Shown: positions 9,296-55,191 of the stretch, piece after piece | Numbering within the stretch: position 1 is the first letter of the stretch | How the letters are laid out: every line of letters begins with the position of its first letter | Assembly (NCBI GenBank): GCA_030748895.1 | Contig: JASMLC010000006.1 | Coordinates: 15,442 to 79,441 of the forward strand | From: Candidatus Poseidoniia archaeon | GTDB lineage: Archaea; Thermoplasmatota; Poseidoniia; MGIII; CG-Epi1 | Direction: 5' to 3' | Length of the DNA stretch: 64,000 nucleotides | Notes under the pieces: model-generated | Told to the model about the DNA's origin: nothing | The model's input: only the letters and a program-made list of their open reading frames with translations | The model's database searches: none | Made by a program: the position numbers and the translations under genes

Positions 9296-9314
9296 CACCC
9301 GCAACAGGAAAACG

Positions 9315-10842: not shown

Positions 10843-10927
10843 GGGTCACCTGATATCAATTAGCATAAAAACATCCATGCAAAGCACGTTGTGAAACCTT
10901 AAAGCCCCGGAACTCTCATACACCAGC

Positions 10928-12394: not shown

Positions 12395-12408
12395 TGATTG
12401 TTAATAAT

Positions 12409-12962
12409 TTATTCCAATATTTCCCAACCATAAACCGTAGCTTGTTGATGGACGGGATGAATTAAATCAGTAACAGTTTTTGAAAATTTCTCACTTAGTC
12501 TAATCTCAAGTTCTTCCGAAGCTATTAGCTCAAATGAATCAAAGAGGATTGACAAGTCAAATCTGGGTTCGGAATGTTCATATGTAAACACAACCACTCC
12601 CTTTCTTTCCGAAAAATCTGAATTTAGTAGGCTTATGCAATCCCCCAGCACACTAACATTTCCCGCATAGGGATGCATCATATTTTCCGACCAGTGTTCA
12701 GCAGGTTTGCCGTTATCGCCAAATGGCCTGACAATCTTGAATTCTAGTGCCCATTTTTCAGGGATTAACAAGTCCGGATGTCTCTTCGTCTTTGCTCCGG
12801 CAAAATAATCAATATAATGCTCTTTCAGGTATTGAAGGGATTTAATCACCAGCTGAGTTTCTGCGTAAGGCCCCACTCCCGGTTTGTAATTCTTAAATGG
12901 AATTCCAGAACGGTCAATATGTCTCAGTGCTTCAGCAAAATAATTAACTAATTTATCCATAT
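12409..12962 (-). CDS. PD-(D/E)xK nuclease-fold protein (hypothetical), AT-rich
   Basis: Track ORF 12409..13008. Likely start MDKLVNYF (ATG about 12962, 3 nt after the aspS stop). Contains HPDLLIPEKWALEFKIV, a classic PD...ExK arrangement. Strongly AT-rich relative to neighbours. Confidence 0.45.
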
Positions 12963-12965
12963 ATT

Positions 12966-21169: not shown

Positions 21170-22636
<1,467 letters not shown>

Positions 22637-22662
22637 TTTTACACACTTTTCTAGAAATTTTT

Positions 22663-28810: not shown

Positions 28811-28850
28811 GGGCTGCCGAAAGTAGGCTGCTATAAATGAGTACGGATAA

Positions 28851-31800: not shown

Positions 31801-33956
31801 ACATTCCCGTCTTCAACCCAAGCTATGTAGACGTGCGCGCCCTCCGAAAGAACAAACGGAGCAAACGACCAGTCGTCAGAGCCATGATCGGATATGATGA
31901 ATGGCGTACCCCAGTTTGATCCCCTGTCACTGGATACGGACATCAGGATGTCATAGTCAAGGAGGCTATCCTCGTCGTATAATCCATAATCTACCCAGGC
32001 GACATAGACATAGTCCCCACTAGCGGATATCGAAGGGCGATAATCTGTCTGCTCAACGCTGTTACCATTAGTATCTGCATCTCCATCAAAATGTGAGATT
32101 ACAATGGGGCTGCTCCAACTCTCACCATCATCGCTGGAATGGCGAAAAAATATATCGCCATCATCACCATGGGCATCATTACCGTTGCTATCGGATTGCT
32201 GATTAAGGTCACCTCCATCCCAGTATGCGAGGTACAACGAATCTCCTGAAGTAGCGAGCGCGGGCATCCACGAATCCGCTTCATAGTAATGTTCGGAAAT
32301 CTGATTTACGACTGACCATGAACTGCCTCCATCGCCAGAAGTGGCATAGTGGATGTCCTGCTCACTCGAGGCTCCACCGCTGCTGTCACGGTCCGACCAG
32401 ACCACAGCAATGTCCGAGCCCTCGGCAGTGACCCAAGGTGAGGCGCGGAAGTCAACCTCTACATCGTTATCAATTGTCTCGGGGTCGCTCCAGGTCGTGC
32501 CGCCATTGGAGGAGTCGCTGATAACAATCCGGTAGGGCTGGTCTGCATCCACCGTTGTACGACGCCATGTACTGTAGAACCCCCCGTCGCCATCAGCCGC
32601 GACGGAGACGAACGCAACATTGTTGTCATCGGAAGTTGAGAGGGTACTCTCAGTACCGAAACTGGTTCCCCCGTTCGAGGAAGCTCTTGCCTTGACGGAA
32701 GGCTGGGCGCCAGTCTCGGCGTTGGAATCTATCCATATCACGACCACGCGATTTCCGTCATCGACATCGATGTTGCAATCATTGACGGTACGGTCGACCG
32801 AACTCAGCTGCTGTTGCGTGCCGAAGGTAGTGCCGCGGTTACTGGATTGACGGTACTGGACTGTGTAGTATGCGTTGTCACTGTCATACTCCATCCACAC
32901 CACGTAAACATTACTGCCGCTTACAGCCACTGCAGGGTAGAGGCTGCTCTGATCGCTCGACGAAGACACGAGGGTCGGTGTGCTCCAGCTATCGCCACCA
33001 TCATCGGAGGAAACGACATAGATGTCGGGGTCTGTGCCCTGATTACTCATATTATTGTCATCGGCATAAACCACGTAGACATACCCGTCGGTAGCAGCCA
33101 TGGCAAGACCATAGGTTAGGTTACTCTCATCAAGATCAACTTTCTTGGTCTCGGACCAGCTGCTGCCGCTATTGGTAGATACACGCAAATGAATCTCATC
33201 GCCTTTCACGGTCAATAAGCCATATGATTCCCAAGCCGCGTAGAGGGTTGAGCCATCGCGTGCCAGAGTCTGGTAGTCCAGTATGGGTGAGCTACTGGTG
33301 CCGCTACTGGCGAGTACGACAGCATCATTCCAATTACTGCTGGTGTAGCTACGGAAGAGGATATTCTCGTAGTTCACATCGCTCAGGTTCCCATAATCCT
33401 GCCAGATTACGAATAGGTCATCGCCATTATTGACAACTTTCGGGGCATAACTGACAGAACCACCATTAGTATCGATTGAGGATAATCTGAAATCATCTAA
33501 CTCACCCGAACCATAGGGCAATCCGCTAATGTCGACCGTGGCGTCCGTCACGGTTGCATTGGCCGGAATAAGCATCTCAATCGTATCATCACCGGCGGAG
33601 GGGAAGCTGGCGCTGGCACTGTTGCCGCCGCTGACGAAGAGCTGCTGCCGTCCCAGTTCGCCATAGCCCTTGCCACTGTACCTCCAGGTGCTGCTGCTCA
33701 CCGCGACTTCGATGTCGCTGGCGTAATCGCCGTCGTCATCGGCGCCGCCGCTGATGGTGATTGCTGCCTCGAGCACCTCCGCCCGCGGGAAGAGCAGGCT
33801 GGTCAGCGCATCCTCCTCGCCGCTGGTGAGGTCGAGGCTGACGCTGTCGGTGTACGCGTCGTCACGGTAATACTGCGTGACGGTCTCGCCCATGGCCGGG
33901 ATGTTCAGCACCAGCAGTGCGGCGAGCAAAAGCGAAAACAGGCGTTGGGAGTACAT
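28851..33956 (-). CDS. giant cell-surface protein (about 1700 aa), paralog of 22883..28810 with the same domain order and the same C-terminal TM plus zinc-ribbon tail
   Basis: Track ORF to 34061. Probable start MYSQRLFSLLLAALLVLNIPAMG (ATG about 33956) with TTTAAAA box about 30 nt upstream. Many BNR repeats (SNGGTSFG, SSNGGTTWSD, SGDGGSSWS, SDDGESWSS, SSDRGSNWG, SADYGQNWDD, SDDNGATWSE, SKDGGVTWD, QDDGESWSD). C-terminus ...FFLLVFAMLLVGLGGIFFYFQR-(Pro/Ala-rich linker)-CPGCQTQLKIADTRRPLTVACPGCQTHLKLE. Confidence 0.8.
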   Translation of the reverse strand: MYSQRLFSLLLAALLVLNIPAMGETVTQYYRDDAYTDSVSLDLTSGEEDALTSLLFPRAEVLEAAITISGGADDDGDYASDIEVAVSSSTWRYSGKGYGELGRQQLFVSGGNSASASFPSAGDDTIEMLIPANATVTDATVDISGLPYGSGELDDFRLSSIDTNGGSVSYAPKVVNNGDDLFVIWQDYGNLSDVNYENILFRSYTSSNWNDAVVLASSGTSSSPILDYQTLARDGSTLYAAWESYGLLTVKGDEIHLRVSTNSGSSWSETKKVDLDESNLTYGLAMAATDGYVYVVYADDNNMSNQGTDPDIYVVSSDDGGDSWSTPTLVSSSSDQSSLYPAVAVSGSNVYVVWMEYDSDNAYYTVQYRQSSNRGTTFGTQQQLSSVDRTVNDCNIDVDDGNRVVVIWIDSNAETGAQPSVKARASSNGGTSFGTESTLSTSDDNNVAFVSVAADGDGGFYSTWRRTTVDADQPYRIVISDSSNGGTTWSDPETIDNDVEVDFRASPWVTAEGSDIAVVWSDRDSSGGASSEQDIHYATSGDGGSSWSVVNQISEHYYEADSWMPALATSGDSLYLAYWDGGDLNQQSDSNGNDAHGDDGDIFFRHSSDDGESWSSPIVISHFDGDADTNGNSVEQTDYRPSISASGDYVYVAWVDYGLYDEDSLLDYDILMSVSSDRGSNWGTPFIISDHGSDDWSFAPFVLSEGAHVYIAWVEDGNVDSSGNDYDIAFRHSADYGQNWDDIVVPADNGDWDDQPWMALAGGKIQLVWTNTNQYTILYSNSDDNGATWSEPQTIDTEESSTTSLSPSVSGQDDSLFVAWREYGDYDGDAVADYDVIVKHSKDGGVTWDKAFVVSDDSTAYFYYTFPALVTGNGITYVAWQDLTDGSTTEWQHFFRFTQDDGESWSDILPISEYNGDSQSSYNYMAPATAIGNRAYFAWADGRNIASAGADDSDIFLRTTLGEEYPDNPSIDMDGDGSNDWQWGGELNDDNSPVTWSDSGSPGAQKSLVDALNDALAEAETEVDQYGVEMARLELQLHSDGEGVVRLNSLSVEYDVDLVFGSATLLSRLNSLVNNADEDDETVETAISVTAGTQGRVVLKELNLRTTNAELEIDSVQLSDDPPRQGHDLTITATISNDGDGDVSAQIAFWYDEVSLSNQLGNVSSVTVPSGGNVQVSAIWQDPPAGSHELIVSIVDSVPDDSDTAGNTWRQYYEFQATSPAFDVETFRLDDTAIDGEETELLVELYNSGDRYGTVDIYVYEDDEDGFAVLSELGVQINEDETKQRSADWVADKDVEELLLLVVDHDDGTVYVREFMIPSVQTLVDFNVISVEWQDADENLITIFTDGVEAYAQIMIQNSGSFDARADIEISLTRGNNRLEDVAPNYFPNVLFPAGQSQLLTQDGNLPLFEFDASKYSGFTGQWTLEVNVKEVRPEHSTDEGLWDPEEMHFIDTSYTLNVAEPPDLSINSFTASPSTPSFGDTVTFTITVLNSGDSPASGVVNLVRSGTIIESAPFSVAGDFADTDVTIEWIVGPNIDGETPFEAELVSITPAEMEGASTEDNSASTTLDIKGKVTQPGGGSEGEGDLGNLTFFLLVFAMLLVGLGGIFFYFQRTGGDQPADEEDALGEPAPAAPPVASAPPPPPAAPAAPQPAPQAAPVAPAAAAAVTIQCPGCQTQLKIADTRRPLTVACPGCQTHLKLE

Positions 33957-34015
33957 GCGTGGCCTCGACCCCTCCTGCTCCAACGCCATTTTAAACTTCA
34001 CGCGCTGGCACGACC

Positions 34016-34738
34016 GTGACTGAGCAACTGCACATGGCCTCGTTCGAGGGCACCTACACACGCCAGTTCTCGGCGACGGTCGAGGCGGTCCACCCGGGAA
34101 TCGTCGAGCTGGACCGCACGGCGTTCTACCCGTTCGGCGGCGGGCAGCCGGCCGATACAGGCCGGCTCGAATGGGAGGGCGGCACAGCGAGCGTCGAGGA
34201 CGTACGCAAGCGCAACCGCCTGCGGCACATGGTTGCGGGCGACCTGCCGGAGGTCGGCACGACGGTCGAGGGCGCCCTCAACTGGGAGCGGCGCTACGCG
34301 CACATGAAGATGCACTCCTCACAGCACCTCGTCTCGGCGGTCGTCGACCAGCTCCACGGTGCGCGCACCGTCGGCAACCAGCTTTACGCCGACAAAGCGC
34401 GCATCGATTTCCAGCCGCTGCGGCTCTCCCCCGCGCAGCTATCCGAGGTCGAGGCCGAAGCGAACCGCTACCTTGCGAGGGACTTGCCGGTCACCATCAC
34501 CGAGGGCGAGCGCAGCGAGCTGGAGCAGGACCCGCTGGTGCGCTCGAACCTCGCGCTGCTCCCGCCATCAATCAAACGCCTGCGCGTCATAAGCATCGGC
34601 AACCTGGATACCTGTCCCTGCGCCGGCACGCATGTCCGCTCCCTCGGGGAAATCGGCGAAATCGAGTTCACGAAGCGCGATAACAAAGGCAGCGGCAAGC
34701 AGCGGCTGACGTATGCGCTGCGCGACCCCACCCCTTAA
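34016..34738 (+). CDS. alaX: alanyl-tRNA editing protein AlaX (AlaX-M type, Ser-tRNA(Ala) deacylase)
   Basis: 240 aa; FYPFGGGQP.D.G motif, zinc-binding HSSQHL and CAGTHV motifs of the AlaRS editing domain. GTG start at 34016 in the track; ATG alternative at 34034. Confidence 0.75.
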   Translation: MTEQLHMASFEGTYTRQFSATVEAVHPGIVELDRTAFYPFGGGQPADTGRLEWEGGTASVEDVRKRNRLRHMVAGDLPEVGTTVEGALNWERRYAHMKMHSSQHLVSAVVDQLHGARTVGNQLYADKARIDFQPLRLSPAQLSEVEAEANRYLARDLPVTITEGERSELEQDPLVRSNLALLPPSIKRLRVISIGNLDTCPCAGTHVRSLGEIGEIEFTKRDNKGSGKQRLTYALRDPTP

Positions 34739-34765
34739 AACCGGCTCGAGGTCGCGCCGCCACCA

Positions 34766-36094
34766 ATGGTTCTCGACAGCCTCGGCTCCGCCCTTCGCGC
34801 TACGATGCGCAAGATAGCGGGCGCGAGCCATATCTCGCCGGAGCTGGTGAAAGAGCTGGTCCGCGACATCCAGCGGGCGCTGCTGCAGGCGGACGTCAAC
34901 GTCAAGCTGGCGCTGGAACTGAGCAAGCGCATCGAAAGCCGCGCGCTGGAGGAGAAAGCGCCGGCGGGGATGACCGCGCGCGAGCACGTCGTGCGCATTG
35001 TGCACAGCGAGATGGTCGGCGCGCTGGGGGTACCGCGCGAGCTGAAGCCGGGAGCGCAGAAAATCATGCTCGTCGGGCTTTACGGGCAGGGCAAGACGAC
35101 CACCGCCGGGAAGCTGGCGAAATGGTTCCAGCGCAAAGGACTCTCCGTCGGCCTTACGGGGGCGGATGTGCACCGGCCGGCGGCGTTCGAGCAGCTTTCG
35201 CAGCTGGCGGCGCAGCTGAACGTGCCGGTGGCTGGCGGCAGCAGCGACGCGGTCGCGGCCGCCAGTGCCGGGCTCGAGGCGCATTCCGAGCTGGAAGTGC
35301 AGATTTACGATACCGCCGGACGGCACGCGCTCGATGGCGACCTGATTGCCGAGATGAAGGCGGTTGCCAAGGTTATCAAGCCGGACGAAATCCTGCTGGT
35401 GCTCGACGCCACCGTCGGCCAGCAGGCGGGGCCGCAGGCGGCGGCGTTCCACGAAGCGGTCGGCGTTACCGGCGTGGTGCTGACCAAGCTGGACAGCTCC
35501 GCGAAGGGCGGCGGCGCGCTCTCGGCCGTGGCCGCGACCGACGCGCCGGTGATGTTCGTCGGGACTGGCGAGATGCTCGATGCGCTGGAGCGGCTCGAGC
35601 CGGACAGGTTCATCTCGCGGCTGCTCGGGATGGGCGACCTGCAATCACTGCTCGAGCGCGCCGAGGAAGTCATGGACGCCGACAAGGCCGAAGAGACGGC
35701 AAAGCGGCTGCTCTCGGGCAAGTTCAGCCTGGTCGAGATGCGAGAGCAGATGGAGGCGCTGGCGCAGATGGGGCCATTGGGCAAGGTGATGGAGATGATT
35801 CCCGGCATGTCGGCGATGATGAAGGGTAACCAGGCCGACGTAACGCAAAAAAAGCTGGAGCGATTCAAGGTGTTGATGAACTCGATGACGCAGCAGGAAA
35901 TGGAAAATCCGAAGCTCATCAAACGTTCCCGGCTCCAGCGTATCGCCGCCGGTGCGGGCGCCGATGTGCAGGAAGTGCGCGAGCTGCTCGCCTACTACAA
36001 CAAGAGCCGAAAGATGATGTCGTCGCTCGGCGGCAACCGTCGCATGCAGAAGCAGCTGATGCGGCAGATGGAGCGCGGCGAGCTGAATCTCTGA
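34766..36094 (+). CDS. srp54: signal recognition particle protein SRP54
   Basis: 442 aa; N domain, G domain (GLYGQGKTTTAGKLA, DTAGR, TKLD) and Met-rich M domain (MIPGMSAMMKG). Confidence 0.9.
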   Translation: MVLDSLGSALRATMRKIAGASHISPELVKELVRDIQRALLQADVNVKLALELSKRIESRALEEKAPAGMTAREHVVRIVHSEMVGALGVPRELKPGAQKIMLVGLYGQGKTTTAGKLAKWFQRKGLSVGLTGADVHRPAAFEQLSQLAAQLNVPVAGGSSDAVAAASAGLEAHSELEVQIYDTAGRHALDGDLIAEMKAVAKVIKPDEILLVLDATVGQQAGPQAAAFHEAVGVTGVVLTKLDSSAKGGGALSAVAATDAPVMFVGTGEMLDALERLEPDRFISRLLGMGDLQSLLERAEEVMDADKAEETAKRLLSGKFSLVEMREQMEALAQMGPLGKVMEMIPGMSAMMKGNQADVTQKKLERFKVLMNSMTQQEMENPKLIKRSRLQRIAAGAGADVQEVRELLAYYNKSRKMMSSLGGNRRMQKQLMRQMERGELNL

Positions 36095-36133
36095 AGGCAA
36101 ACAGCCTTTTACCGCGCCGAACCTCGCCTGCTG

Positions 36134-36496
36134 ATGGTCCTTGGACTGCAGCACCTCGGCGAGCTGACCGAACTGCTCGAGCGCATGAACGAAACAATGC
36201 GTTCGCTCGACGGCCGGCTCGAGTCGTTTGACGCGACTGCGGGCAGCCTCGACGAGCATCTCGTCGGGCTTTCGGCCTCGATGGAATCCATCGTCGGCTC
36301 GTTCGAGTCGGTGGCGCGCTCGCTCGAGAAGCTGGCTGCAACGCTCAGTTACCTCGACACCCCGCTGAAGCTGGCGACTACTCCGCTGCGGCCGGTGCAG
36401 TCAGTGCTGGATGTCGTCGTCAACGAGATCACCTCCGTCCGCGACCTCTACCAGCAGGTTGTCGAAGAGGCGCGCAAGACGCTGGCAGAGGATTAA
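36134..36496 (+). CDS. hypothetical coiled-coil protein (120 aa)
   Basis: ORF with heptad-like Leu/Glu pattern between srp54 and downstream small ORF. No family recognised. Confidence 0.4.
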   Translation: MVLGLQHLGELTELLERMNETMRSLDGRLESFDATAGSLDEHLVGLSASMESIVGSFESVARSLEKLAATLSYLDTPLKLATTPLRPVQSVLDVVVNEITSVRDLYQQVVEEARKTLAED

Positions 36497-36527
36497 AGCA
36501 CAAATACCCCCTCCCGGTCGCGGGAAG

Positions 36528-36878
36528 ATGCGTAGCTACGAGGTGAAACGCGGGCACGGCAAGACGCTCGAAAAAGGCGGCCTGCGGAAGAGGCTGGCTG
36601 AGGTTTTCGACGGCGTCAGCGACAAGGGCGACTGGCATGTCGCCTCATACGGCGCGCTGCAGCAGGTAACGGTAAGGATGGTCAGCAAGTCCGAGATTGA
36701 GCTGGATTCGCAGCTCGACACTACCGCCTCGCTCGAAGTGGCGACCGACACCCACCAGCGCTTCAACAAGTTTCTCGAGACTGTGACCGGTTTCAGCGCC
36801 AAACAGCGCAAGGACCGCGCCAAGGCCAAGGCGAAAGCCGAGGCGAAGGCGGCCGCCGCGCAGGAAAGCGGCGATTGA
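36528..36878 (+). CDS. hypothetical protein (116 aa, Lys/Ala-rich C-terminus)
   Basis: Track ORF 36411..36878. N-terminal part overlaps the previous ORF in another frame, so the ATG at about 36528 (MRSYEVKRGHGKTLEKGG...) is the likely start. Confidence 0.4.
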   Translation: MRSYEVKRGHGKTLEKGGLRKRLAEVFDGVSDKGDWHVASYGALQQVTVRMVSKSEIELDSQLDTTASLEVATDTHQRFNKFLETVTGFSAKQRKDRAKAKAKAEAKAAAAQESGD

Positions 36879-37384
36879 GCCCGCTGGCTCTTACAGGAAC
36901 CCCGGGAACCGGTAAGACCACGCTGGCGCGACTGCTCAACCACCCGCGGCTGGAGCTCTCCGACTACTACGAAACGTCCAGCGACGGCCGCGACGACGGT
37001 GGTGAATGGCTGGTTGACCTTGAGCAAATGGCGACCGCGGTCGCGCGCGACACAAAACCGGAGGCGGTCATCGAGGGGCACCTGTCGCACCGGTTGGGGC
37101 TGTGCGAGACCGCTGTCGTCCTGCGCTGCCACCCCGACGAGCTGCGGCAGCGGCTCGCCGCCCGCGGCTACGCGGAGGCGAAGCTGCGCGAGAACCTCGA
37201 GGCGGAGGCGCTGGGCATCATCACCGCCGAGGCGCTGGAAACGGGAGCGGAGGTGCATGAGCTCGACACCACTGGGCAACCACTGGCCGCCAGCGCGGCG
37301 GCGCTGGCGGCCATCATGGCGGGCGCGAAGAGTTATCAGCCGGGGCGAATTGACTTCAGCGAAGCCATACTGGGATGGTACTGA
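36875..37384 (+). CDS. putative adenylate kinase / nucleoside-triphosphatase, Fap7 (AK6)-like
   Basis: 169 aa; P-loop LALTGTPGTGKTTLARLL at the N-terminus, a size and organisation typical of archaeal Fap7-like kinases. ATGA overlaps on both sides. Confidence 0.6.
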   Translation: MSPLALTGTPGTGKTTLARLLNHPRLELSDYYETSSDGRDDGGEWLVDLEQMATAVARDTKPEAVIEGHLSHRLGLCETAVVLRCHPDELRQRLAARGYAEAKLRENLEAEALGIITAEALETGAEVHELDTTGQPLAASAAALAAIMAGAKSYQPGRIDFSEAILGWY

Positions 37385-37990
37385 ATGGTCGCCGACAACT
37401 TCCGCGAAATTGGCACGCGCCTGCTGACACCGCTGGCGCGCAGCTTCCCGCTCGACCCGATGGGCATCAGCCTGCTCTCACTCGCGACCGCTATCGGCGC
37501 CGGCTACTGCTTCTCGCAGGCGAACGCCGGTGAGGTATGGCTGCTCTACGCGGCGGGACTGGTGTTCCTCACCGCCCTCCTGGACGCGCTCGATGGTATC
37601 GTCGCCCGCATCCGCAACCTCGCCTCGAAGCGGGGCGACCTCGTCGACCACACGCTTGACCGCGTCGCCGACGTAATCATCCTCGGCGGCATCGCGCTGG
37701 GGCCGCTGGTCAATGAACGCGCCGGATTTGCAGCCCTTCTCGGCGTGCTGCTGCTCTCCTACATGGGGACGCAGGCGCAGGCCGTGGGAGCCGGCCGCGT
37801 CTACAGCGGGCTGCTGGGCCGCGCCGACCGGCTGGTGCTGCTGATGACGGTACCGGTCATCCAGTTCTTTTTCGACGTGCCGATTGAGGGCGAATATCTG
37901 ATTACATGGATGGCGTACACCTTCGCGGTCGTCTGCTCCGGGTCGGCGCTGCTACGCTTCTGGTTGGTCTGGAAATTTCTGGAAAAATAG
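37385..37990 (+). CDS. CDP-alcohol phosphatidyltransferase family protein (archaetidyl-inositol-phosphate/serine synthase-like)
   Basis: 201 aa membrane protein with DALDGIVAR...G...D...D (D-x2-DG-x2-AR...G-x3-D-x3-D) signature. Confidence 0.75.
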   Translation: MVADNFREIGTRLLTPLARSFPLDPMGISLLSLATAIGAGYCFSQANAGEVWLLYAAGLVFLTALLDALDGIVARIRNLASKRGDLVDHTLDRVADVIILGGIALGPLVNERAGFAALLGVLLLSYMGTQAQAVGAGRVYSGLLGRADRLVLLMTVPVIQFFFDVPIEGEYLITWMAYTFAVVCSGSALLRFWLVWKFLEK

Positions 37991-38135
37991 GAACTATATG
38001 GGTTTTATTAACAGACGTATGAGTCTGGCAATGGTGGCCTTGAAGGACATCACTAGTGACGAGAAGGAAATTGAAAGGATTCAGTCCTACTTTGTAGATG
38101 ATGACGAAGAAGAAAATATCGCAGGAGACAAATAA

Positions 38136-38840
38136 ATGATAAAAGAAAAGACAGTGGGTGAGATGGTTGTTAATGATGGACGTGTAGCAACAGTTTTCAA
38201 TAAATTTGGATTGGATTTTTGTTGCAATGGTCACCAGACTCTTGAAGCAGCTTGTGCGTCAAAAGGCATCAATCTCCAAGAGATTGTAGATGATATCGAG
38301 CTGTTAATGAAAAACGATAGCAATCCTGATAGATCATTTAACGATATGTCTTTGGACAAGCTAATTGAACATATTTATGACAAACATCACCAATATATTT
38401 ACAAAAATTGTCCAGCAATCTCTAAATTCATCAACAAGGTAGCAAATGTTCATGGCAAAAATCATCCAGAGACTGTTGAAATTGCAAAAATGTTTGATGA
38501 ATTACAATTAGAACTTGAACAACATTTGTTCAAAGAAGAACATATTCTGTTTCCATATGTAAAAGGTATGGTTTTGGAAGATAAATGCCCGGGTTCTTTT
38601 GTAAATGGCCCTATATCTGTAATGATGGAAGAACATGATAATGCTGGAAGAATTCTTGAGGTATTAAGAAGGATAAGTAATAACTACAAGCCACCAAAAG
38701 ACGCTTGTAATACATTCAGGGCAGCATATGTCAATTTACAAGCCCTAGAAGAAGATCTTCACATGCATATTCACTTGGAAAATAACATTCTTTTTCCTAA
38801 AGCAATAGAACTAGAAAATAGCTTATTGGAAAACGTCTGA
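38136..38840 (+). CDS. iron-sulfur cluster repair di-iron protein (RIC/ScdA/YtfE family)
   Basis: 234 aa; N-terminal ScdA_N-like VGEMVVNDGRVATVFNKFGLDFCCNG; hemerythrin-like His/Glu pattern (HH..., EEH, HMHIHLENNILFP). Located in the AT-rich island. Confidence 0.7.
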   Translation: MIKEKTVGEMVVNDGRVATVFNKFGLDFCCNGHQTLEAACASKGINLQEIVDDIELLMKNDSNPDRSFNDMSLDKLIEHIYDKHHQYIYKNCPAISKFINKVANVHGKNHPETVEIAKMFDELQLELEQHLFKEEHILFPYVKGMVLEDKCPGSFVNGPISVMMEEHDNAGRILEVLRRISNNYKPPKDACNTFRAAYVNLQALEEDLHMHIHLENNILFPKAIELENSLLENV

Positions 38841-38864
38841 AAGCGAAATCCTGTGGAAGAATCA

Positions 38865-39191
38865 CTATATGTGGGAGTCTGAGGGGCTTGGATCTGCCCT
38901 GCATATCTTGGTTGGAGACTCCAGAAAGCGATTGATGGCAATCTCGGCTATATTGGAACCATATTCACCTATCCAGGCGATATTCCAGCCAATCGACCGG
39001 ATACTGGAGGCAAGGGTAGGATGAAAATCGGCTGTCAGCTTGAATAATATAGAAGTAAAGGCCGCTTCCTCTTCCTTCAGGATACCGCGGCGGATGATCG
39101 CTTCATTGGCAAGTCCTATGTCACGGTTGATAAGTGAGGAGAGTGCCATCTCCAGAGACTCCATGACTGTGTGCCCCATTTCGATTCCCAT
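38865..39191 (-). CDS. PhoU-domain protein (single PhoU repeat); start uncertain
   Basis: Track ORF 38865..39311. The C-terminal 90 aa match the PhoU motif (..DIGLANEAIIRRGILKEEEA...NIAWIGEYGSNIAEIAI, like dLERIGDhavNIAE). The S/T-rich N-terminal 40 aa are probably not translated. An overlapping plus-strand ORF exists (see rejected). Confidence 0.4.
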   Translation of the reverse strand: MGIEMGHTVMESLEMALSSLINRDIGLANEAIIRRGILKEEEAAFTSILFKLTADFHPTLASSIRSIGWNIAWIGEYGSNIAEIAINRFLESPTKICRADPSPSDSHI

Positions 39192-39401
39192 TGAAGAAGA
39201 ATATACCGTTGATTTTTTTGCAGATAAAGCGGGTGAATTCACATACCGTAGTACTGGGCTGTGCAAAGTCGAGATTGCTGGAGGCAATGAAGTAATCGTA
39301 GACTGCTCCATATTTTGTGGTGAGATAGGTAATGCACGTACGGGAACAATTGTGATTGAGTCAAATCCTTCTGGTTAGTCCTATTCAGTCAAAGATTCAG
39401 G

Positions 39402-39422
39402 AGCCGGATGAGGAAGCCTGAG
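39402..39422. repeat. 21-bp direct repeat AGCCGGATGAGGAAGCCTGAG (copy 1)
   Basis: Recurs with one mismatch at 40068..40088, bracketing the SnoaL-like gene. Confidence 0.6.
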
Positions 39423-39511
39423 CCATAAGGTGCTGTTATAGGATCTATAGTAGACCCCTCCCCTCATTTCTTTCGCAGTATAGTTTTTATAGATGTATAG
39501 TATAGAAAGTC

Positions 39512-39913
39512 ATGAGCAAAGCCGAAGTTAATGCTGCAAATTTAGAATTCTACGCCGCCTTAAATAAAATATTATCTGGCCAACTTGCCCCGATGGAGGC
39601 CGTTTGGTCTCATGCTGACGATATCACTTATATGGGGCCTGCAGCCGGGGACTACAAGGTGGGCTGGGAGGCGGTACGAAAAGACTGGGAAGGACAGCTG
39701 GGTTTGCGGGGCACCGTGGAACCGGTGGAGGTGCAGATCACGTCTGGCCCCCTCATTGCGACGGTCAGCAATATCGAGAGTATAAGAATGGAAATCCAAG
39801 GAGAGCTTAAAGACATAAGTATCCGCGCTACAAATATTTTCCGCAAGGAGGATGGACATTGGAAAATGATTGGCCATCATGTGGATCCTCTCCCATCTTT
39901 TCCTTCGCAGTAA
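39512..39913 (+). CDS. SnoaL-like / NTF2-like (ketosteroid-isomerase fold) protein
   Basis: 133 aa; NTF2-like pattern. TTTTATAG box about 27 nt upstream of the ATG (leaderless). Flanked by 21-bp direct repeats. Confidence 0.55.
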   Translation: MSKAEVNAANLEFYAALNKILSGQLAPMEAVWSHADDITYMGPAAGDYKVGWEAVRKDWEGQLGLRGTVEPVEVQITSGPLIATVSNIESIRMEIQGELKDISIRATNIFRKEDGHWKMIGHHVDPLPSFPSQ

Positions 39914-40067
39914 AAGCAATACCTCTGGCAGGATTTATTGTGGGGCAATATATCTCTCCAAAGAAGAGGAACATTACAAACACGTAGATAAGAATTGTCT
40001 AATCTTTTCTGCACTGAATATTGTTCTCGGTTTCATAATGATAGCTGCAATATTAGGAAGTCTGTGA

Positions 40068-40088
40068 AGCCGGATGAGGAAGCCTTAG
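40068..40088. repeat. 21-bp direct repeat AGCCGGATGAGGAAGCCTTAG (copy 2); also forms an imperfect palindrome with downstream TCCGGCTT
   Basis: See copy 1. 666 bp apart. Confidence 0.6.
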
Positions 40089-40090
40089 AA

Positions 40091-40258
40091 TTAATCGTCT
40101 TCCGGCTTAGTTAACGCCATTATTATGCAGGCAACTACGAACACAATGCCTCCCCAACAACTCAGTGCCCATAAACGCCCAGATGCGATGATACTGAACA
40201 GGAGGAAAACAAGTAGTAAGATTAACCCAACAGAGAAGTATAATGCGTTGTTTTCCAT
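40091..40258 (-). CDS. small two-TM membrane protein (55 aa)
   Basis: Below the track size cut-off. MENNALYFSVGLILLLVFLLFSIIASGRLWALSCWGGIVFVVACIIMALTKPEDD. TTATAAAT box 26 nt upstream of the ATG on the minus strand. Confidence 0.35.
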   Translation of the reverse strand: MENNALYFSVGLILLLVFLLFSIIASGRLWALSCWGGIVFVVACIIMALTKPEDD

Positions 40259-40433
40259 AGGATACTATTCTATCACAAATTTATAAGCTTTTCAATATGA
40301 ACAACCACAGTATTTTAATCTCAGGAGGCGTCAGGGGGGTGTGAAGGATAAACTCGCAAACATTGTGATTTGGATTGTGTTACTTGGTGCGGAAGTCCTA
40401 AATACTAACTGATTCGGTCGCAGTCAAGCTAGG

Positions 40434-41039
40434 ATGAGTACACACGCTGACGCACTTGGAAGAAGGGCATTGATTATTGCCTTCATTATAAATTTGATAA
40501 TGATGTCAGTAGATTTATGGTACGGTTTAATGATGAAATCAGCTTCATTGTTAGGTGATGCTGCTAACAATTCAGGAGACGTGTTTATCCTTGGATCGAG
40601 CATCCTCGTGCTATCGTCAACCACAGCCGTCAAGAACAGACTGGCATTGTTCAAAGGAATAATAATGACCGTATTTGGTCTGTGGGCATTCTATCATGTA
40701 TATCTGGGTCTGATAGAGGAATCGGATTTGTTGACTGGAGGTACTATTTCTATTATTGGAGTAATGTCACTGGCTGGCAACGCGAGCGTTGCATTCATGA
40801 TGTACAAGCACCAGCACAAAGACATAAACTTCATGAGTGCATTTATCTGCTGCAGGAATGACGCCTTTGCTTCAGCTGGAATTATCCTTGCCGGTCTATT
40901 GGTATGGTATTTTGATGCTTCCTGGCCCGACATCATAATCGGGGCCGCCATAGCAGCCATCGTTTGCCATGGGGGAATCCAGGTTATCAGAATGAGTCTC
41001 GACCCTGCTTCTCAGGAAGAGGATTGCGAGTGCTGCTAG
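40434..41039 (+). CDS. cation diffusion facilitator (CDF) family transporter, short form lacking C-terminal cytoplasmic domain
   Basis: 201 aa, 5-6 TM. N-terminal HADALGRRALIIAFIINLIMM and DAANNSGDV segments resemble the CzcD/ZitB TM domain. Ends with a Cys-rich tail (EEDCECC). Confidence 0.55.
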   Translation: MSTHADALGRRALIIAFIINLIMMSVDLWYGLMMKSASLLGDAANNSGDVFILGSSILVLSSTTAVKNRLALFKGIIMTVFGLWAFYHVYLGLIEESDLLTGGTISIIGVMSLAGNASVAFMMYKHQHKDINFMSAFICCRNDAFASAGIILAGLLVWYFDASWPDIIIGAAIAAIVCHGGIQVIRMSLDPASQEEDCECC

Positions 41040-41048
41040 GGTCTTAAT

Positions 41049-41255
41049 TTAAAAAGGGATAGAAATGGGAGACTCTCCTGTAGTATCGCTTAATCGGTAA
41101 GTTACCCATGCACCAACTAGCCAACCAAGAGCTAGTATCATTACTCCCAACATCATAAACGCATCCCCACCATTTGGACCAATACCGGAATTACCAATAA
41201 ATATCACAACAAAACCGAAAAGCCACACCCAAATAGGCAGAAGATTTTTGTCCAT
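41049..41255 (-). CDS. small two-TM membrane protein (68 aa), hypothetical
   Basis: ORF convergent with the CDF gene. TTAAAG element about 28 nt upstream of the ATG. Confidence 0.3.
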   Translation of the reverse strand: MDKNLLPIWVWLFGFVVIFIGNSGIGPNGGDAFMMLGVMILALGWLVGAWVTYRLSDTTGESPISIPF

Positions 41256-41328
41256 ATCGGTGCGATACGCATCTAGATATGACTTTAACTGGAAAAATAG
41301 TTTCTGGAAAGATTAGAAGCCTGCGCGC

Positions 41329-41484
41329 TGGTGGGAGCGCTGGGATTTGAACCCAGATCGGCGGGTCTCACCTATGGTGGCGTGCAGGTCAGCGCTCCAG
41401 TCATTCATCACTGTTCAGCAGACCTATTGCCATCATTCCTGCATAACTGGAGCCCGCAATGATGCCGAGTTACACCACACTCCC
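41329..41484 (-). tRNA. tRNA-Trp (anticodon CCA) with an 80-nt intron (38-nt 5' exon, 80-nt intron, 38-nt 3' exon incl. CCA)
   Basis: Minus-strand acceptor GGGAGTG/CGCTCCC, T-arm CTGGG-TTCAAAT-CCCAG, anticodon stem GCGGG/CCCGC reconstituted only after removing 41367..41446, loop CTCCAGA (CCA anticodon), encoded CCA end. Oligo-T about 30 nt downstream. Confidence 0.75.
41387..41437 (-). ncRNA. C/D box sRNA embedded in the tRNA-Trp intron (C AUGAUGG, D' CUGA, C' UGAUGA, D CUGA)
   Basis: Intron (minus-strand reading) ...aATGATGg-caataggtctg-CTGA-acag-TGATGA-atgactggagcg-CTGA... The D-box guide is complementary to GCTCCAGTT at the 5' exon/intron junction, placing the fifth nucleotide upstream of box D opposite C34 of tRNA-Trp. 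The D' guide matches CAGACC (position 39) of the ligated exons. Confidence 0.7.
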
Positions 41485-41572: not shown

Positions 41573-42115
41573 GTGGCGAGCGCCAAACCGCAGCCTGCAG
41601 CCAGTCCCGATGAGCGGGAGCCGGTTCAGGTTGTGCCTGAACCGGCTCCTGAAGAGGCGGACGCCGGCACCGACGCAGAGGGCGCGGCCGAAGTGGTGGA
41701 CGGCGAGGAAGAGGAACGGCCGGAGCACGAGCCGTGCCATCCGCTCGACAAAATCTGGCTGCCGACTTACGCTGATGAGAACACGCAGAATGCGAAGCAT
41801 GACTGGTGCCTGAATACAGGCATCATCCGCAACCAGAGCGGCGAAGAGGCGCGGCCGCGCGGGTTCTGGGTGGCGGCGCTGCGCAAGCTCCAGCGGAGGC
41901 TGGCGAAGGAAGCGGACAAGACCCACATGACTGGGCAGCTGACCGACGCACAGGAGCGCATCATCCTCCACGAGCTTGACGCGCTCGAGGGTTTCTACGA
42001 CCGCTGGTGGCGCACTGAGTCGTCGCAGGTCCACAAGTTTGTGCAGGTGGTCCAGAAATGGCGGCCGGATATTTCGGAGCGCGTCATCGTCGACACCATA
42101 ACCCGGATGTGGTAG
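41573..42115 (+). CDS. hypothetical protein (180 aa, acidic low-complexity N-terminus)
   Basis: GTG-initiated ORF immediately upstream of rpe (1-nt spacing). No family recognised. Confidence 0.4.
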   Translation: MASAKPQPAASPDEREPVQVVPEPAPEEADAGTDAEGAAEVVDGEEEERPEHEPCHPLDKIWLPTYADENTQNAKHDWCLNTGIIRNQSGEEARPRGFWVAALRKLQRRLAKEADKTHMTGQLTDAQERIILHELDALEGFYDRWWRTESSQVHKFVQVVQKWRPDISERVIVDTITRMW

Positions 42116-42116
42116 C

Positions 42117-42743
42117 GTGGCGGTCGTCGCCCCCTCGATGCTGGGCGCCGACTTCGGGCGACTGCGCGAGCTGGCAGAGCTTATCGCGCCGCACAGCGGC
42201 TACCTGCACATGGACGTCATGGACGGCCATTTCGTGCCGAACCTGACCATGGGCCCCGATACGGTCGCGGCGCTACGCGGCATCGCACCGCTCGACGTGC
42301 ACCTGATGGTCACAGACCCGCTGGACTTCATTGAGGCGTTTGCCGACGCGGGGGCTGATATCATCACAGTCCACGCCAAGGCGAACGGGACGGCAGCCGC
42401 CATCGACGCCATCCATGCGCGCGGGCTGAAGGCGGGCGTCGCGATTCGGCCTTCGACACCGCTCGAAGCGCTTGACCCGTGGCTCGGAGTGGTGGAACTG
42501 CTGCTGCCGATGTCAGTCGAGCCCGGATTCTGCGGACAGGAATTTGACGAAGGCACTTACGACCGCATCCGCGCGCTGCGCGAGGCGGCACCCGAGGCGC
42601 TCATCGAGGTTGACGGCGGCGTCACCTGCGAGAATGCCGCAGCACTGCGCGAAGCGGGTGCGGACATCCTGGTTTCGGGCAGCGCCATCTTCGGGACCGA
42701 AGACCCGGTCGCCGCCGCACGCACGATTGCGGGTCTCGAATAA
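42117..42743 (+). CDS. rpe: ribulose-phosphate 3-epimerase
   Basis: 208 aa; SMLGADF...HMDVMDGHFVPNLTMGP motif of Rpe TIM barrels. GTG start. Confidence 0.85.
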   Translation: MAVVAPSMLGADFGRLRELAELIAPHSGYLHMDVMDGHFVPNLTMGPDTVAALRGIAPLDVHLMVTDPLDFIEAFADAGADIITVHAKANGTAAAIDAIHARGLKAGVAIRPSTPLEALDPWLGVVELLLPMSVEPGFCGQEFDEGTYDRIRALREAAPEALIEVDGGVTCENAAALREAGADILVSGSAIFGTEDPVAAARTIAGLE

Positions 42744-55113: not shown

Positions 55114-55191
55114 ACGCCCGCACCCTCCATGCCGGGGTGATAAAGGTTTCTGATGAGCGGAGGCCTTTAAGAAGCGCAGCAGTGCGCCCGC

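What the first reader, a model, noticed from the sequence alone, without database searches (positions are those of the whole stretch)
37990..41330. Low-GC accessory island abutting the 3' end of tRNA-Trp: Fe-S repair, PhoU-like, SnoaL-like, short CDF and micro-ORFs, no integrase
GC drops sharply from the end of the CDP-alcohol phosphatidyltransferase gene (37990) to the 3' end of tRNA-Trp (41329). The segment encodes a RIC/ScdA di-iron protein, a single-repeat PhoU-like protein, a SnoaL/NTF2-like protein, a truncated CDF transporter with a Cys-rich tail, and at least two leaderless 55-68-aa membrane-protein ORFs with well-placed TATA boxes. The position against a tRNA 3' end is the classical integration site of archaeal and bacterial integrative elements, yet no integrase or obvious att duplication of the tRNA 3' end is present. 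This suggests an old, decayed island carrying a metal and nitrosative-stress cassette.
Basis: partly seen in the sequence, partly recalled or inferred. Interest (0 to 1): 0.5.

Follow-up and report, generated by a model that had tools for sequence, protein, structure and literature searches.

The report
Swappable gene-cassette island beside tRNA-Trp
The low-GC stretch next to tRNA-Trp is a real insertion hot spot in a marine Group II archaeon (Poseidoniia). It is filled with small gene cassettes that are swapped between strains and between distant relatives, often at a conserved 18-21-base joint sequence that I could not find described in the literature I searched.

Summary
Window 37997-41315 has GC 0.418 against about 0.65 in the flanks. 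It sits between a CDP-alcohol phosphatidyltransferase gene and an intron-containing tRNA-Trp (41329-41484, minus strand). It holds no recombinase and no repeat of the tRNA end.

It is an insertion. A related genus keeps the whole gene order with only 35 nt between the transferase and tRNA-Trp. Other relatives fill the same slot with different low-GC DNA of 2.2-6 kb.

"One old decayed island" is only partly right. The island is a mosaic of about four cassettes. Intact genes are RIC/ScdA, a SnoaL-like gene, a 55-aa membrane ORF and a naturally short CDF. Truncated remnants derive from DUF5654, PhoU, cupredoxin, Kazal-like and DUF4389 genes.

The modules are 90-99.6% identical to DNA at other loci of other Poseidoniia, including a 42% GC genome. 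Same-species strains (99.9% identical) switch neighbours exactly at cassette joints.

Several joints carry AGCCGGATGAGGAAGCCT: two perfect copies in the window, plus a remnant beside the tRNA. This motif is common in marine metagenomes, abuts tRNA 3' ends in relatives and bounds cassette indels.

A small serine recombinase flanked by tRNA 3' fragments occurs in sibling islands. It is a candidate agent, not a proven one.

The parts
37385..37990 (+). Left conserved flank: CDP-alcohol phosphatidyltransferase, archaetidylinositol-phosphate-synthase-like
   Evidence: Pfam PF01066, E 3e-9. Best NCBIfam match is archin_ph_syn, below its cut-off. Homology with all relatives runs to 37996.
37997..41315 (.). 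Low-GC flexible island (cassette array), GC 0.418
   Evidence: Absent from L162/L163. Replaced by other low-GC DNA in L023, L019, L021, L022, L025 and L161.
37998..38135 (+). 45-aa ORF; 3' remnant of a DUF5654 gene, with homology starting at 38018
   Evidence: L027-L031 carry a full 107-aa DUF5654 gene directly upstream of ScdA. They are 92% nt identical to the window over 38018-38842.
38136..38840 (+). Intact RIC/ScdA di-iron Fe-S cluster repair protein (234 aa)
   Evidence: Pfam ScdA_N + Hemerythrin. TIGR03652 equivalog, 250 bits against a cut-off of 204.7. The nearest named homologues outside its own group are 59% identical proteins of Marinimicrobia.
38865..39164 (-). Single PhoU-domain fragment. 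The ORF can be extended to 39311, but that extension is antisense to the cupredoxin remnant.
   Evidence: Pfam PhoU, E 9e-8, residues 44-124 of the 148-aa ORF. The first 43 residues match the antisense of the L032 cupredoxin gene. No PDB or NCBIfam match.
39184..39378 (+). 3' remnant of a 176-aa cupredoxin-like gene
   Evidence: tblastn gives 88% aa identity to residues 104-162 of the L032 protein, which sits directly upstream of ScdA there. Weak Cupredoxin_1 match, E 3e-4, below the Pfam cut-off.
39402..39421 (+). Joint motif copy 1: AGCCGGATGAGGAAGCCT followed by GA
   Evidence: 2 copies in the window against 0.05 expected by chance. The motif plus the next 38 nt (39402-39457) is 93-98% identical in 8 other loci.
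39512..39913 (+). SnoaL_3/DUF4440-like protein (133 aa)
   Evidence: Pfam PF13474, E 8e-15. No homologue in the other loci fetched.
39918..40067 (+).
   Evidence: 77-83% nt identity to 9 loci. The intact 67-aa gene is L128:2326-2529. In the window its reading frame is split between ORFs 39859-39987 and 39870-40067.
40068..40085 (+). Joint motif copy 2
   Evidence: Strain L165 (99.9% identical) matches the window only from 40067 rightwards and carries a different cassette to the left.
40091..40258 (-). 55-aa membrane-protein ORF, conserved intact
   Evidence: 98% aa identity in L091, L112, L121 and L122. The DNA at 40066-40314 is 96.1-99.6% identical in those four loci.
40300..40412 (+). Conserved promoter/Shine-Dalgarno-like leader (..AGGCGTCAGGGGGGTGTG), then a 23-codon micro-ORF that is the 5' remnant of a Kazal-like small secreted-protein gene
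   Evidence: The leader is 89-100% identical in about 9 loci. Window 40300-40396 is 89% identical to L165, where the ORF continues into a 93-aa protein that looks Kazal-like by eye (not scanned against Pfam).
40383..40399 (+). Degenerate remnant of a third motif copy at the left edge of the CDF cassette (tentative)
   Evidence: L141 has the full motif, L092/L049 a half motif and L172 a 3-mismatch copy, all directly before the same AAAGTCCTAAATAC.. sequence. Strain L172 matches the window only from 40393 rightwards.
40434..41039 (+). Short CDF transporter (201 aa): membrane domain only, with a Cys-rich tail
   Evidence: Pfam Cation_efflux, E 4e-18. TIGR01297 positions 2-195 of 285. Full-length homologues of the same size, 91-98% identical, occur in L141, L126 and L092.
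41049..41255 (-). 68-aa ORF; the first 66 codons of a 269-aa DUF4389-containing gene, cut at 41058
   Evidence: Window 41058-41284 is 91% identical to L128:329-555. The L128 gene is 269 aa with DUF4389 at residues 194-260.
41316..41328 (+). Motif remnant GAAGCCTG plus CGCGC, abutting the tRNA 3' end. Homology with relatives resumes here.
   Evidence: L022/L023 have CGCCGGAAGAGGAAGCCT (16/18 match) at the same place. L019, L021 and L025 keep only AAGCCTG.
41329..41484 (-). tRNA-Trp(CCA) with encoded CCA end and an 80-nt intron holding a C/D-box sRNA (41387-41440)
   Evidence: ARAGORN -i. Rfam tRNA 39.6 bits and sR3 43.4 bits.
41573..42743 (+). Right conserved flank: 180-aa protein with no Pfam or NCBIfam match, then ribulose-phosphate 3-epimerase
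   Evidence: The same order is seen in L161-L163.

Best explanation
The gap between the transferase stop codon and the 3' end of tRNA-Trp is a flexible genomic island in Thalassarchaeaceae (marine Group II, Poseidoniia). It is an insertion hot spot filled with short, self-contained, AT-rich gene cassettes of 0.25-1.4 kb.

Shown:
- The slot is empty in one related genus and holds different fillings in other relatives and strains.
- The window's filling is a mosaic of about four cassettes plus gene remnants.
- The modules recur at 90-99.6% nt identity at other loci of other Poseidoniia, including a 42% GC genome.
- Strain-to-strain and contig-to-contig differences begin or end at cassette joints.
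- Many joints carry the conserved sequence (A)AGCCGGATGAGGAAGCCT(GA). It usually follows a stop codon and often precedes a conserved promoter/SD-like leader.
- A copy or remnant of the motif abuts the 3' end of tRNA-Trp and tRNA-Leu genes.

Inferred:
- Cassettes are gained, lost and exchanged by recombination at these joints.
- The island looks low-GC because the cassettes come from an AT-rich gene pool shared across Poseidoniia with genomic GC of 33-66%.

More speculative:
- The exchange is site-specific, catalysed in trans by a small serine recombinase. That enzyme is found in sibling islands next to tRNA 3' fragments. The window encodes none.

The cargo is accessory: Fe-S repair, metal efflux and small membrane proteins. 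It is not one coordinated stress operon.
For: Empty site with gene order conserved on both sides: L162/L163.

Alternative fillings with identical boundaries at 37996 and 41316: L023, 4.9 kb, no DNA homology to the window's filling; L161; L006/L007, +2702 bp.

Not an assembly artefact: both junctions are spanned at 99.7-99.9% identity by independent contigs from JGI, NCBI MAGs and ENA.

Transfer of modules: the ScdA module is 92% nt identical to a 42% GC Poseidoniia contig at a different locus. The 55-aa cassette is 98.8-99.6% identical elsewhere and the CDF cassette 96%.

Joints in same-species strains: L165 diverges from the window 1 nt before motif copy 2. L172 diverges at 40393, directly after its own 3-mismatch motif copy.

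Motif:
- 2 copies in the window against 0.05 expected.
- A conserved block of about 21 nt in 85 dereplicated contexts.
- 82 left-flank clusters and 62 right-flank clusters give 104 distinct junctions; 12 left and 16 right clusters have several partners.
- Indels bounded by motif copies in otherwise near-identical contigs: L082 against L117, and L044 against L081/L098.
- The motif lies 1-7 nt from full tRNA 3' ends in L128, L117, L022 and L023.

Recombinase: Resolvase + HTH_7. The motif lies 114-126 nt after its stop codon in 4 of 4 testable contigs. A tRNA 3' fragment lies upstream in at least 5 contigs, and in 6 more by read-through of the gene call.
Against: No recombinase lies in the window or in the tRNA-Trp islands of the relatives examined.

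Only 1 of about 120 loci selected by the motif carries the serine recombinase. Its link to the motif may only mean that it is one more cassette.

The motif has no dyad symmetry or hairpin. Truncated copies break at several different positions. A fixed crossover point is therefore not shown, and homologous recombination at short shared sequences would explain the data equally well.

Not every module boundary in the window has a motif. Those at 37996/38000, 38842, 41058 and 41284 do not.

The cupin cassette at this slot in three species is 78-98% identical. That fits long residence with differential loss as well as exchange.

All data are metagenomic, so neither expression nor mobility has been observed.
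Confidence: 0.7

Rival explanations
1. One reading: one classical integrative element (virus or plasmid) entered the 3' end of tRNA-Trp by an integrase. It then lost its integrase and att repeat and has been decaying in place.
For: The position is at a tRNA 3' end. Several genes are truncated. Sibling islands do carry a recombinase with tRNA 3' fragments. Charybdis elements are reported to integrate next to tRNAs in Poseidoniales (bioRxiv 10.1101/2025.08.03.668216).
Against: No att repeat was found, and none of the island ORFs matches a virus or plasmid hallmark family in Pfam. The content differs cassette by cassette between strains that are 99.9% identical. Each module occurs independently at other loci. 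No relative of the recombinase family was found in IMG/VR.
Confidence: 0.1
2. The 18-21-nt motif is a regulatory or 3'-end signal of small mobile genes, for example a protein- or RNA-binding site after the stop codon. Cassette shuffling is ordinary homologous or microhomology-mediated recombination that uses the motif and the leader modules as the only sequences the cassettes share. No dedicated recombinase is involved.
For: The motif sits just after stop codons in the orientation of the gene. It has no symmetry or hairpin of the kind expected of a recombinase core site. Truncated copies break at varied positions. The recombinase is rare near the motif. A second conserved module, the leader, also marks joints.
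Against: 18-21 nt is short for efficient homologous recombination. The sequence is kept nearly invariant across hosts of 33-66% GC. It abuts tRNA 3' ends where no gene precedes it.
Confidence: 0.3
3. The low-GC stretch is ancestral DNA with unusual composition, or an assembly or binning chimera with a co-occurring low-GC archaeon. On this view it is not an insertion.
For: The cupin cassette at this slot is shared by three species at 78-98% identity. The window has other regions of lower GC inside large surface-protein genes and in a ~0.5-GC ABC transporter cluster.
Against: An empty site exists with gene order conserved on both sides. Both junctions are recovered in many independent assemblies. 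GC3 is 0.28-0.55 against 0.8 in the flanks. Modules are near-identical to copies at other loci.
Confidence: 0.03

Closest known systems
Flexible genomic islands, 'additive' type (Rodriguez-Valera and co-workers; concept as summarised in PMC8430335)
   Same: A fixed chromosomal slot between conserved genes. Gene content varies between closely related strains through gain, loss and replacement of small cassettes. Composition is atypical and short-read assemblies break there; many contigs end at 38000-38255 and 40111-40314.
   Different: Here many joints carry one conserved 18-21-nt sequence, and the cassettes are shared across genera whose genomic GC differs by 30 points.
Integrons and integrase-less cassette arrays (CALINs), including archaeal ones (PMC9668308)
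   Same: Arrays of short, often co-oriented ORFs separated by a recurring site at the 3' end of each cassette. There are far more sites than recombinase genes. Partners at the site are combined in many different ways.
   Different: No IntI tyrosine recombinase was found. The site is a linear conserved sequence without the imperfect inverted repeats or hairpin of attC. Cassettes bring their own promoter-like leaders. The array is anchored at tRNA 3' ends, not at attI. The only recombinase seen is a small serine recombinase. Poseidoniales are not mentioned in the main text of that survey.
tRNA-adjacent genomic islands and tycheposons of Prochlorococcus (Hackl et al. 2023, Cell; recalled from my own knowledge, cited in the reference list seen)
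   Same: An abundant oligotrophic marine microbe. Islands sit next to tRNA genes and hold arrays of cargo modules and degraded elements.
   Different: As I recall, tycheposons carry tyrosine recombinases or other hallmark genes and leave partial tRNA repeats. The window has neither. The host here is archaeal and the joint motif is different. Not tested with these tools.
Charybdis elements of Poseidoniales (bioRxiv 10.1101/2025.08.03.668216)
   Same: Same host order. [quoted passage not shown]
   Different: Charybdis elements are circular units of about 4.6 kb with a conserved structural module. The cassettes here are 0.25-1.4 kb with unrelated cargo. No relative of the serine recombinase family was found in IMG/VR. 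No direct comparison with Charybdis genes was made.
Small serine recombinases of the resolvase/invertase family
   Same: The sibling-island enzyme has a Resolvase catalytic domain (E 4e-35) followed by HTH_7.
   Different: It falls below every NCBIfam equivalog cut-off; the best match is XisF at 90 bits against 375. It has a C-terminal extension of about 60 aa. A tRNA 3' fragment lies upstream, which is unusual for this family (from my own knowledge).

Membership tests
Flexible genomic island (strain-variable slot) | Same position between conserved syntenic genes in related genomes | tested here: met
   Transferase on the left and tRNA-Trp, the 145/180-aa gene and Rpe on the right in the window, L023 and L161-L163.
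Flexible genomic island (strain-variable slot) | Gene content differs between close relatives, including an empty state | tested here: met
   Sizes are 35 nt (L162/L163), 2.2 kb (L161), 3.3 kb (window), 4.9 kb (L023) and 6.0 kb (L006/L007). Alternative cassettes occur in strains L165 and L172.
Flexible genomic island (strain-variable slot) | Atypical composition relative to the host genome | tested here: met
   GC 0.418 against 0.63-0.66; GC3 0.28-0.55 against about 0.8.
tRNA-integrated element (provirus, plasmid or ICE-like) | Integrase or recombinase gene inside the element | tested here: not met
   No recombinase domain in the island ORFs scanned. No tblastn hit of the serine recombinase in the window.
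tRNA-integrated element (provirus, plasmid or ICE-like) | Direct repeat of the tRNA 3' part at the far end (attL/attR) | tested here: not met
   The only copy of the 25-nt tRNA-Trp end is the gene itself. No 14-20-mer repeat above chance was found in 30000-41290.
Integron / CALIN | IntI-type tyrosine recombinase next to attI | tested here: not met
   No recombinase domain among the window ORFs scanned. The recombinase in sibling islands is a serine recombinase. The other fetched loci were not scanned systematically for tyrosine recombinases.
Integron / CALIN | attC sites: imperfect inverted repeats that fold into a hairpin, variable in sequence | tested here: not met
   The motif is conserved in sequence. 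The core has a folding energy of about -1.5 kcal/mol. Its flanks are no more complementary than in shuffled pairings (4.02 against 4.17).
Integron / CALIN | Array of short ORFs, each followed by the recombination site | tested here: inconclusive
   The window has 2 perfect copies, 1 degenerate copy and 1 remnant, which delimit about 4 cassettes. ORFs lie on both strands and cassettes have their own leaders. L060 and L073 hold 3-4 copies within 1.3-3.2 kb.
RIC/ScdA Fe-S repair protein (window 38136-38840) | Full-length match above the curated equivalog cut-off | tested here: met
   TIGR03652, 250.3 bits against a cut-off of 204.7, covering positions 1-216 of 216.
Cation diffusion facilitator (window 40434-41039) | Six-helix membrane domain plus a cytoplasmic C-terminal domain | tested here: not met
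   Only the membrane domain is present: TIGR01297 positions 2-195 of 285, at 79.2 bits against a cut-off of 82.35. The short form is conserved in relatives.
PhoU (window 38865-39311) | Two PhoU repeats in a protein of about 210-230 aa (from my own knowledge of the family) | tested here: not met
   One repeat only, at residues 44-124. The N-terminal 43 residues are antisense to another gene remnant.

The most novel reading that the evidence does not exclude
Poseidoniia have their own cassette-capture system that works like an integron but is built from different parts. On this reading, mini-cassettes each have a portable promoter/SD leader and end in the linear site AAGCCGGATGAGGAAGCCTGA. They are inserted and excised site-specifically at a copy of that site beside the 3' end of tRNA genes. 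The enzyme would be a new family of small serine recombinases that carry a tRNA 3' fragment upstream. The cassettes would circulate across the whole order regardless of host GC content.
Probability: 0.3. Interest if true: 0.85.

Novelty: new variant of a known kind. Interest (0 to 1): 0.6.

Why it matters
Marine Group II archaea (Poseidoniia) are among the most abundant archaea in the surface ocean, and none has been cultured. How they exchange genes is largely unknown.

This locus shows a defined slot where accessory genes turn over. The changes happen on the time scale of strain divergence.

The same mini-cassettes move between lineages whose genomic GC ranges from about 40% to 66%. A conserved joint sequence tags them, and it can be used as a search key.

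If the joint proves to be a recombination site, it would be a new, archaeal, integron-like route of gene flow. It would also give a handle for finding the flexible gene pool of this order in metagenomes, where short-read assemblies break at exactly these joints.

If it is only a shared 3' signal, the island remains a clear but ordinary example of a tRNA-adjacent flexible island.

Tried and rejected
- Default ARAGORN and the Rfam gathering run missed tRNA-Trp because of its intron. It was recovered with ARAGORN -i and a focused Rfam search.
- A search for an att duplication of the tRNA-Trp end found nothing above chance.
- The idea that the motif is an attC-like or terminator hairpin was rejected. 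It has no stable fold, and its flanks show no more complementarity than shuffled pairings do.
- No Rfam family matches the motif or the arrays.
- The motif as a coding or read-through extension was rejected. Upstream stop codons fall in different frames relative to it (reading).
- A fixed crossover point inside the motif is not supported. Truncated copies break at several positions.
- No viral origin of the recombinase was found, either with the single sequence or with the family alignment against IMG/VR. The three viral hits to the motif lie in GC-rich contexts unlike the marine type and look like chance matches.
- No recombinase homologue exists in the window. Only one was found among about 120 motif-selected loci.
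- No other low-GC patch of the window carries the motif or the leader module.
- One of the motif-bounded indel pairs (L042 against L057) rests on short, weak flanks and was not used.
- Literature searches found no description of the motif or of a serine recombinase in Marine Group II.
- The PhoU fragment has no PDB or NCBIfam relative, so its parent gene was not identified.

Full report

Yes. In 500-nt windows GC falls from 0.64-0.68 to 0.34-0.48 between about 37990 and 41300, then returns to 0.61-0.66. The segment 37997-41315 has GC 0.418, lower than all 607 other windows of that length in the 64 kb. Third-codon-position GC is 0.28-0.55 in island ORFs against 0.79-0.85 in the flanking genes.

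The window is archaeal, with a 16S rRNA gene at 21170-22637. Protein names from public sources place it in Candidatus Poseidoniia / Thalassarchaeaceae, that is, marine Group II.

Default ARAGORN did not report the tRNA-Trp, but it is real. With introns allowed it is found as tRNA-Trp(CCA) with an 80-nt intron, at 41329-41484 on the minus strand with the CCA end encoded. The Rfam tRNA model scores 39.6 bits, and the intron holds a C/D-box sRNA (sR3, 43.4 bits).

Pfam confirms the CDP-alcohol phosphatidyltransferase, ScdA_N+Hemerythrin, PhoU, SnoaL_3 and Cation_efflux calls. The RIC protein exceeds the equivalog cut-off of TIGR03652.

There is no recombinase domain in the island ORFs scanned, no tblastn hit of the serine recombinase in the window, and no second copy of the tRNA-Trp 3' end.

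**2. Is it an insertion?**

In L162/L163 the whole neighbourhood is conserved: AlaX, SRP54, DUF5611, AAA_18 and the transferase on the left; tRNA-Trp, a 145-aa gene, Rpe, a Big_7 protein, YjeF, a Na/Ca exchanger and GARS on the right. These contigs come from a 40% GC Poseidoniia lineage whose transferase is 64% identical. Only 35 nt separate the transferase stop from the tRNA 3' end.

- L161, a 33% GC lineage, has a different 2.2-kb filling.
- Among closer relatives (flanks 88-91% identical), homology with the window stops exactly at 37996 and resumes at 41316/41317. The DNA between is low-GC but not homologous to the window's filling. L023 has both flanks and a 4.9-kb filling.
- A sister species (94% identical on the left) has a 1.9-kb low-GC filling followed by different genes and no tRNA-Trp, so a gene-order break lies at the island.
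- Within the window's own species (99-99.9% identity), L006/L007 carry an extra 2702-bp low-GC block inserted at 37996/38000. It holds a cupin gene and two membrane-protein genes.

Both junctions of the window's version are spanned by independent contigs from JGI, NCBI MAGs and ENA assemblies. An assembly chimera is therefore excluded.

**3. What is inside?**

Comparison with other loci resolves the 3.3 kb into modules.

- 37998-38135 is the 3' remnant of a DUF5654 gene. With the intact RIC/ScdA gene it forms a block (38018-38842) that is 92% nt identical to L027-L031.
- L027 belongs to a 59-kb Poseidoniia contig of 42% GC. There the block lies at another locus, next to adenylosuccinate synthase.
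- The PhoU ORF is a single-repeat fragment. Its first 43 codons are antisense to 39184-39378. That stretch is itself the 3' remnant (88% aa identity) of a 176-aa cupredoxin-like gene that sits upstream of ScdA in L032.
- The SnoaL-like gene appears intact.
- The '65-aa ORF' is a frameshifted copy of a 67-aa gene family.
- The 55-aa ORF is conserved intact, with DNA 96.1-99.6% identical in four other contigs.
- 40300-40412 is a conserved leader plus the first codons of a Kazal-like small secreted-protein gene. That gene is complete in strain L165.
- The 201-aa CDF is a conserved short form (91-98% identical over its full length in L141, L126 and L092), not a truncation.
- The 68-aa ORF is the first 66 codons of a 269-aa DUF4389 gene, cut at 41058.

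But it is a patchwork of independent pieces rather than one element. The RIC protein's nearest named homologues outside its own group (59% identical) are from Marinimicrobia, which hints at an older bacterial origin.

**4. A conserved joint sequence**

The only notable repeat inside the island is AGCCGGATGAGGAAGCCT, at 39402 and 40068 (0.05 expected by chance).

Most are marine contigs of 34-50% GC, with up to four copies in 3 kb.
- Named proteins on such contigs are from Poseidoniia.
- In 85 dereplicated contexts the conserved block is about 21 nt, (A)AGCCGGATGAGGAAGCCT(GA). It usually comes just after a stop codon and is often followed by a conserved TATA-like/SD-like leader.

Several lines of evidence show that it marks recombination joints.

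- Flank combinations. 82 left-flank clusters and 62 right-flank clusters combine into 104 distinct junctions. Identical 40-nt left flanks are joined to three or four unrelated right flanks.
- Motif-bounded indels. Otherwise near-identical contigs differ by units bounded by two motif copies: L082 against L117 (about 500 nt, two cassettes) and L044 against L081/L098 (51 nt).
- Same-species strains. L165 is 99.9% identical to the window from 40067 rightwards, one base before motif copy 2. To the left it carries a different cassette. L172 is identical from 40393 rightwards, directly after its own 3-mismatch motif copy.
- Position next to tRNAs. The motif lies 1 nt from the 3' end of tRNA-Leu(CAG) in L128, and 2 nt from it in L117 (second copy, 1 mismatch). 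It lies 6 nt from tRNA-Trp in L022/L023 (16/18 match). The window keeps GAAGCCTG at exactly that place, which is where homology with relatives resumes.
- Assembly breaks. Contig ends cluster at 38000-38255 and 40111-40314, as expected if the assembly graph branches at cassette joints.

The motif splits the window's island into about four cassettes: 37997-39401, 39420-40067, 40086-40382 and 40399-41311.

**5. What the motif is not**

It does not fold (core about -1.5 kcal/mol). Its flanks are no more complementary than in shuffled pairings (4.02 against 4.17). It matches no Rfam family. Upstream stop codons lie in different frames, so it is not a read-through peptide. Truncated copies break at several positions, so a single crossover point is not shown. 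Several module boundaries in the window (37996/38000, 38842, 41058, 41284) have no motif. These look like ordinary deletions or illegitimate joins.

**6. A candidate enzyme, elsewhere**

One motif-selected locus, L065, carries a 249-aa serine recombinase in a low-GC island at the 3' side of tRNA-Ala. It has a Resolvase domain (E 4e-35) and HTH_7.

Its family (58-96% identical, then a drop to about 40%) is abundant in marine metagenomes, mostly on very short contigs. In all four contigs with enough downstream sequence, the motif lies 114-126 nt after the stop codon in the opposite orientation, beyond a conserved segment. A 25-35-nt tRNA 3'-end fragment lies 55-110 nt upstream of the start in five contigs. 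In six more family members it is visible as read-through in the gene call.

This looks like the integrase end of tRNA-targeting elements. The link to the window is indirect, however:

- the window has no homologue;
- only 1 of about 120 motif-selected loci has one;
- no relative was found in IMG/VR;
- its proximity to the motif may only mean that it is one more cassette.

**7. Mechanism**

Shown:
- a conserved slot at the tRNA-Trp 3' end that can be empty or variously filled;
- mosaic cassettes shared across Poseidoniia at high identity;
- population-level junctions at cassette joints that often carry the motif.

Inferred:
- cassettes enter, leave and swap by recombination at these joints, drawing on an AT-rich pool common to lineages of 33-66% GC. 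This would explain why the island stands out in a 66% GC host.

Open:
- whether exchange is site-specific (by the serine recombinase or another enzyme acting in trans), or
- whether it is homologous or microhomology-driven recombination at the only sequences the cassettes share.

The cupin block is present at this slot in three species at 78-98% identity. So some cassettes are long-term residents that have not drifted to host GC, or they are repeatedly refreshed by exchange.

The cargo (Fe-S repair, a short metal transporter, a SnoaL-fold protein, small membrane proteins) is accessory. It is not one stress operon, because each part travels separately.

**8. Comparison with what is known**

The island meets the definition of a flexible genomic island of the additive type (concept in PMC8430335). 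It works like an integron or CALIN array but fails the defining tests: no IntI, no attC hairpin, and cassettes with their own leaders (PMC9668308). It fails the tests for a classical tRNA-integrated element in this window (no integrase, no att repeat).

Charybdis elements show that Poseidoniales do host tRNA-adjacent integrating elements (bioRxiv 10.1101/2025.08.03.668216). Those are 4.6-kb units with a structural module. No link to them was found, and none was tested directly.

Tycheposon islands of Prochlorococcus are a functional parallel that I recall from my own knowledge; this was not tested.

Literature searches found no description of the motif or of serine recombinases in Marine Group II. 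The library is incomplete, so this is absence of evidence only.

**9. Verdict**

The 'old decayed island' reading is replaced by an actively turning-over cassette array.

As an island next to a tRNA it is ordinary. The conserved joint motif, its position against tRNA ends, and the recombinase family with tRNA fragments upstream are not described in the literature I could search. They justify follow-up.

- Novelty: new variant of a known kind.
- Interest: 0.6.
- Most novel reading: a dedicated integron-like system driven by a serine recombinase. Probability about 0.3; interest 0.85 if true.

Noticed in passing
window 9220-13000: A second region of lowered GC (0.37-0.56 against 0.64-0.72) starts about 400 nt beyond the 3' end of tRNA-Val(GAC) (9220-9295, plus strand). 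It encodes two BNR-repeat proteins and a 199-aa protein with no Pfam match. The high-GC aspartyl-tRNA synthetase-like gene follows. No joint motif is present.
   Followed up: partly
window 22883-34061 and 52609-55530: The other low-GC patches (25-28 kb, 31-33.5 kb, 53-55 kb) lie inside giant ORFs of 1975, 1736 and 973 aa. These match BNR/Kelch and CARDB domain families, as in surface proteins, so the patches are not separate islands.
   Followed up: partly
window 41387-41440 (minus strand), inside the tRNA-Trp intron: A C/D-box sRNA lies in the tRNA-Trp intron (Rfam sR3, 43.4 bits). The intron is 80 nt here and 95-96 nt in the low-GC relatives L161-L163.
   Followed up: partly
L117:1930-2794: Two identical full tRNA-Leu(CAG) genes lie 690 nt apart. 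Copied native flank and a small low-GC insert sit between them. Only the second copy has the joint motif against its 3' end. This looks like a footprint of integration or duplication at a tRNA.
   Followed up: partly
L011-L018 (sister species), locus coordinates 10607-12800: After the transferase and a cupin-containing low-GC block, gene order switches to Sec61-beta and transglutaminase genes that are absent from the 64-kb window. No tRNA was found in L015. The island therefore coincides with a rearrangement breakpoint between two species that are 94% identical.
   Followed up: partly
L032:3956-6702: In a 36% GC contig the RIC homologue (63% aa identity) sits directly after a cupredoxin-like 176-aa gene and a multicopper-oxidase-like gene, near COX1. 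This may be the native context of the RIC and cupredoxin pieces found scrambled in the window.
   Followed up: partly
L065:179-291, L156:10760-10884, L157:6948-7060, L159:937-1060: The 114-126 nt between the serine recombinase stop codon and the motif contain invariant blocks, GTCGACAAATGG and CACTA.C...CAAAATA. Their role is unknown; they could be a binding or crossover site of the enzyme.
   Followed up: no
L165:5352-5633: Strain L165 carries a 93-aa protein in place of the window's SnoaL cassette. By eye it has a signal peptide, a Kazal-like Cys pattern (CICTEEYAPVCGTDGKTYSNSCKAGC) and a C-terminal membrane anchor ending in RRK. Many ORFs upstream of the motif end in similar ..RRK/..RK tails. 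Not scanned against Pfam.
   Followed up: no
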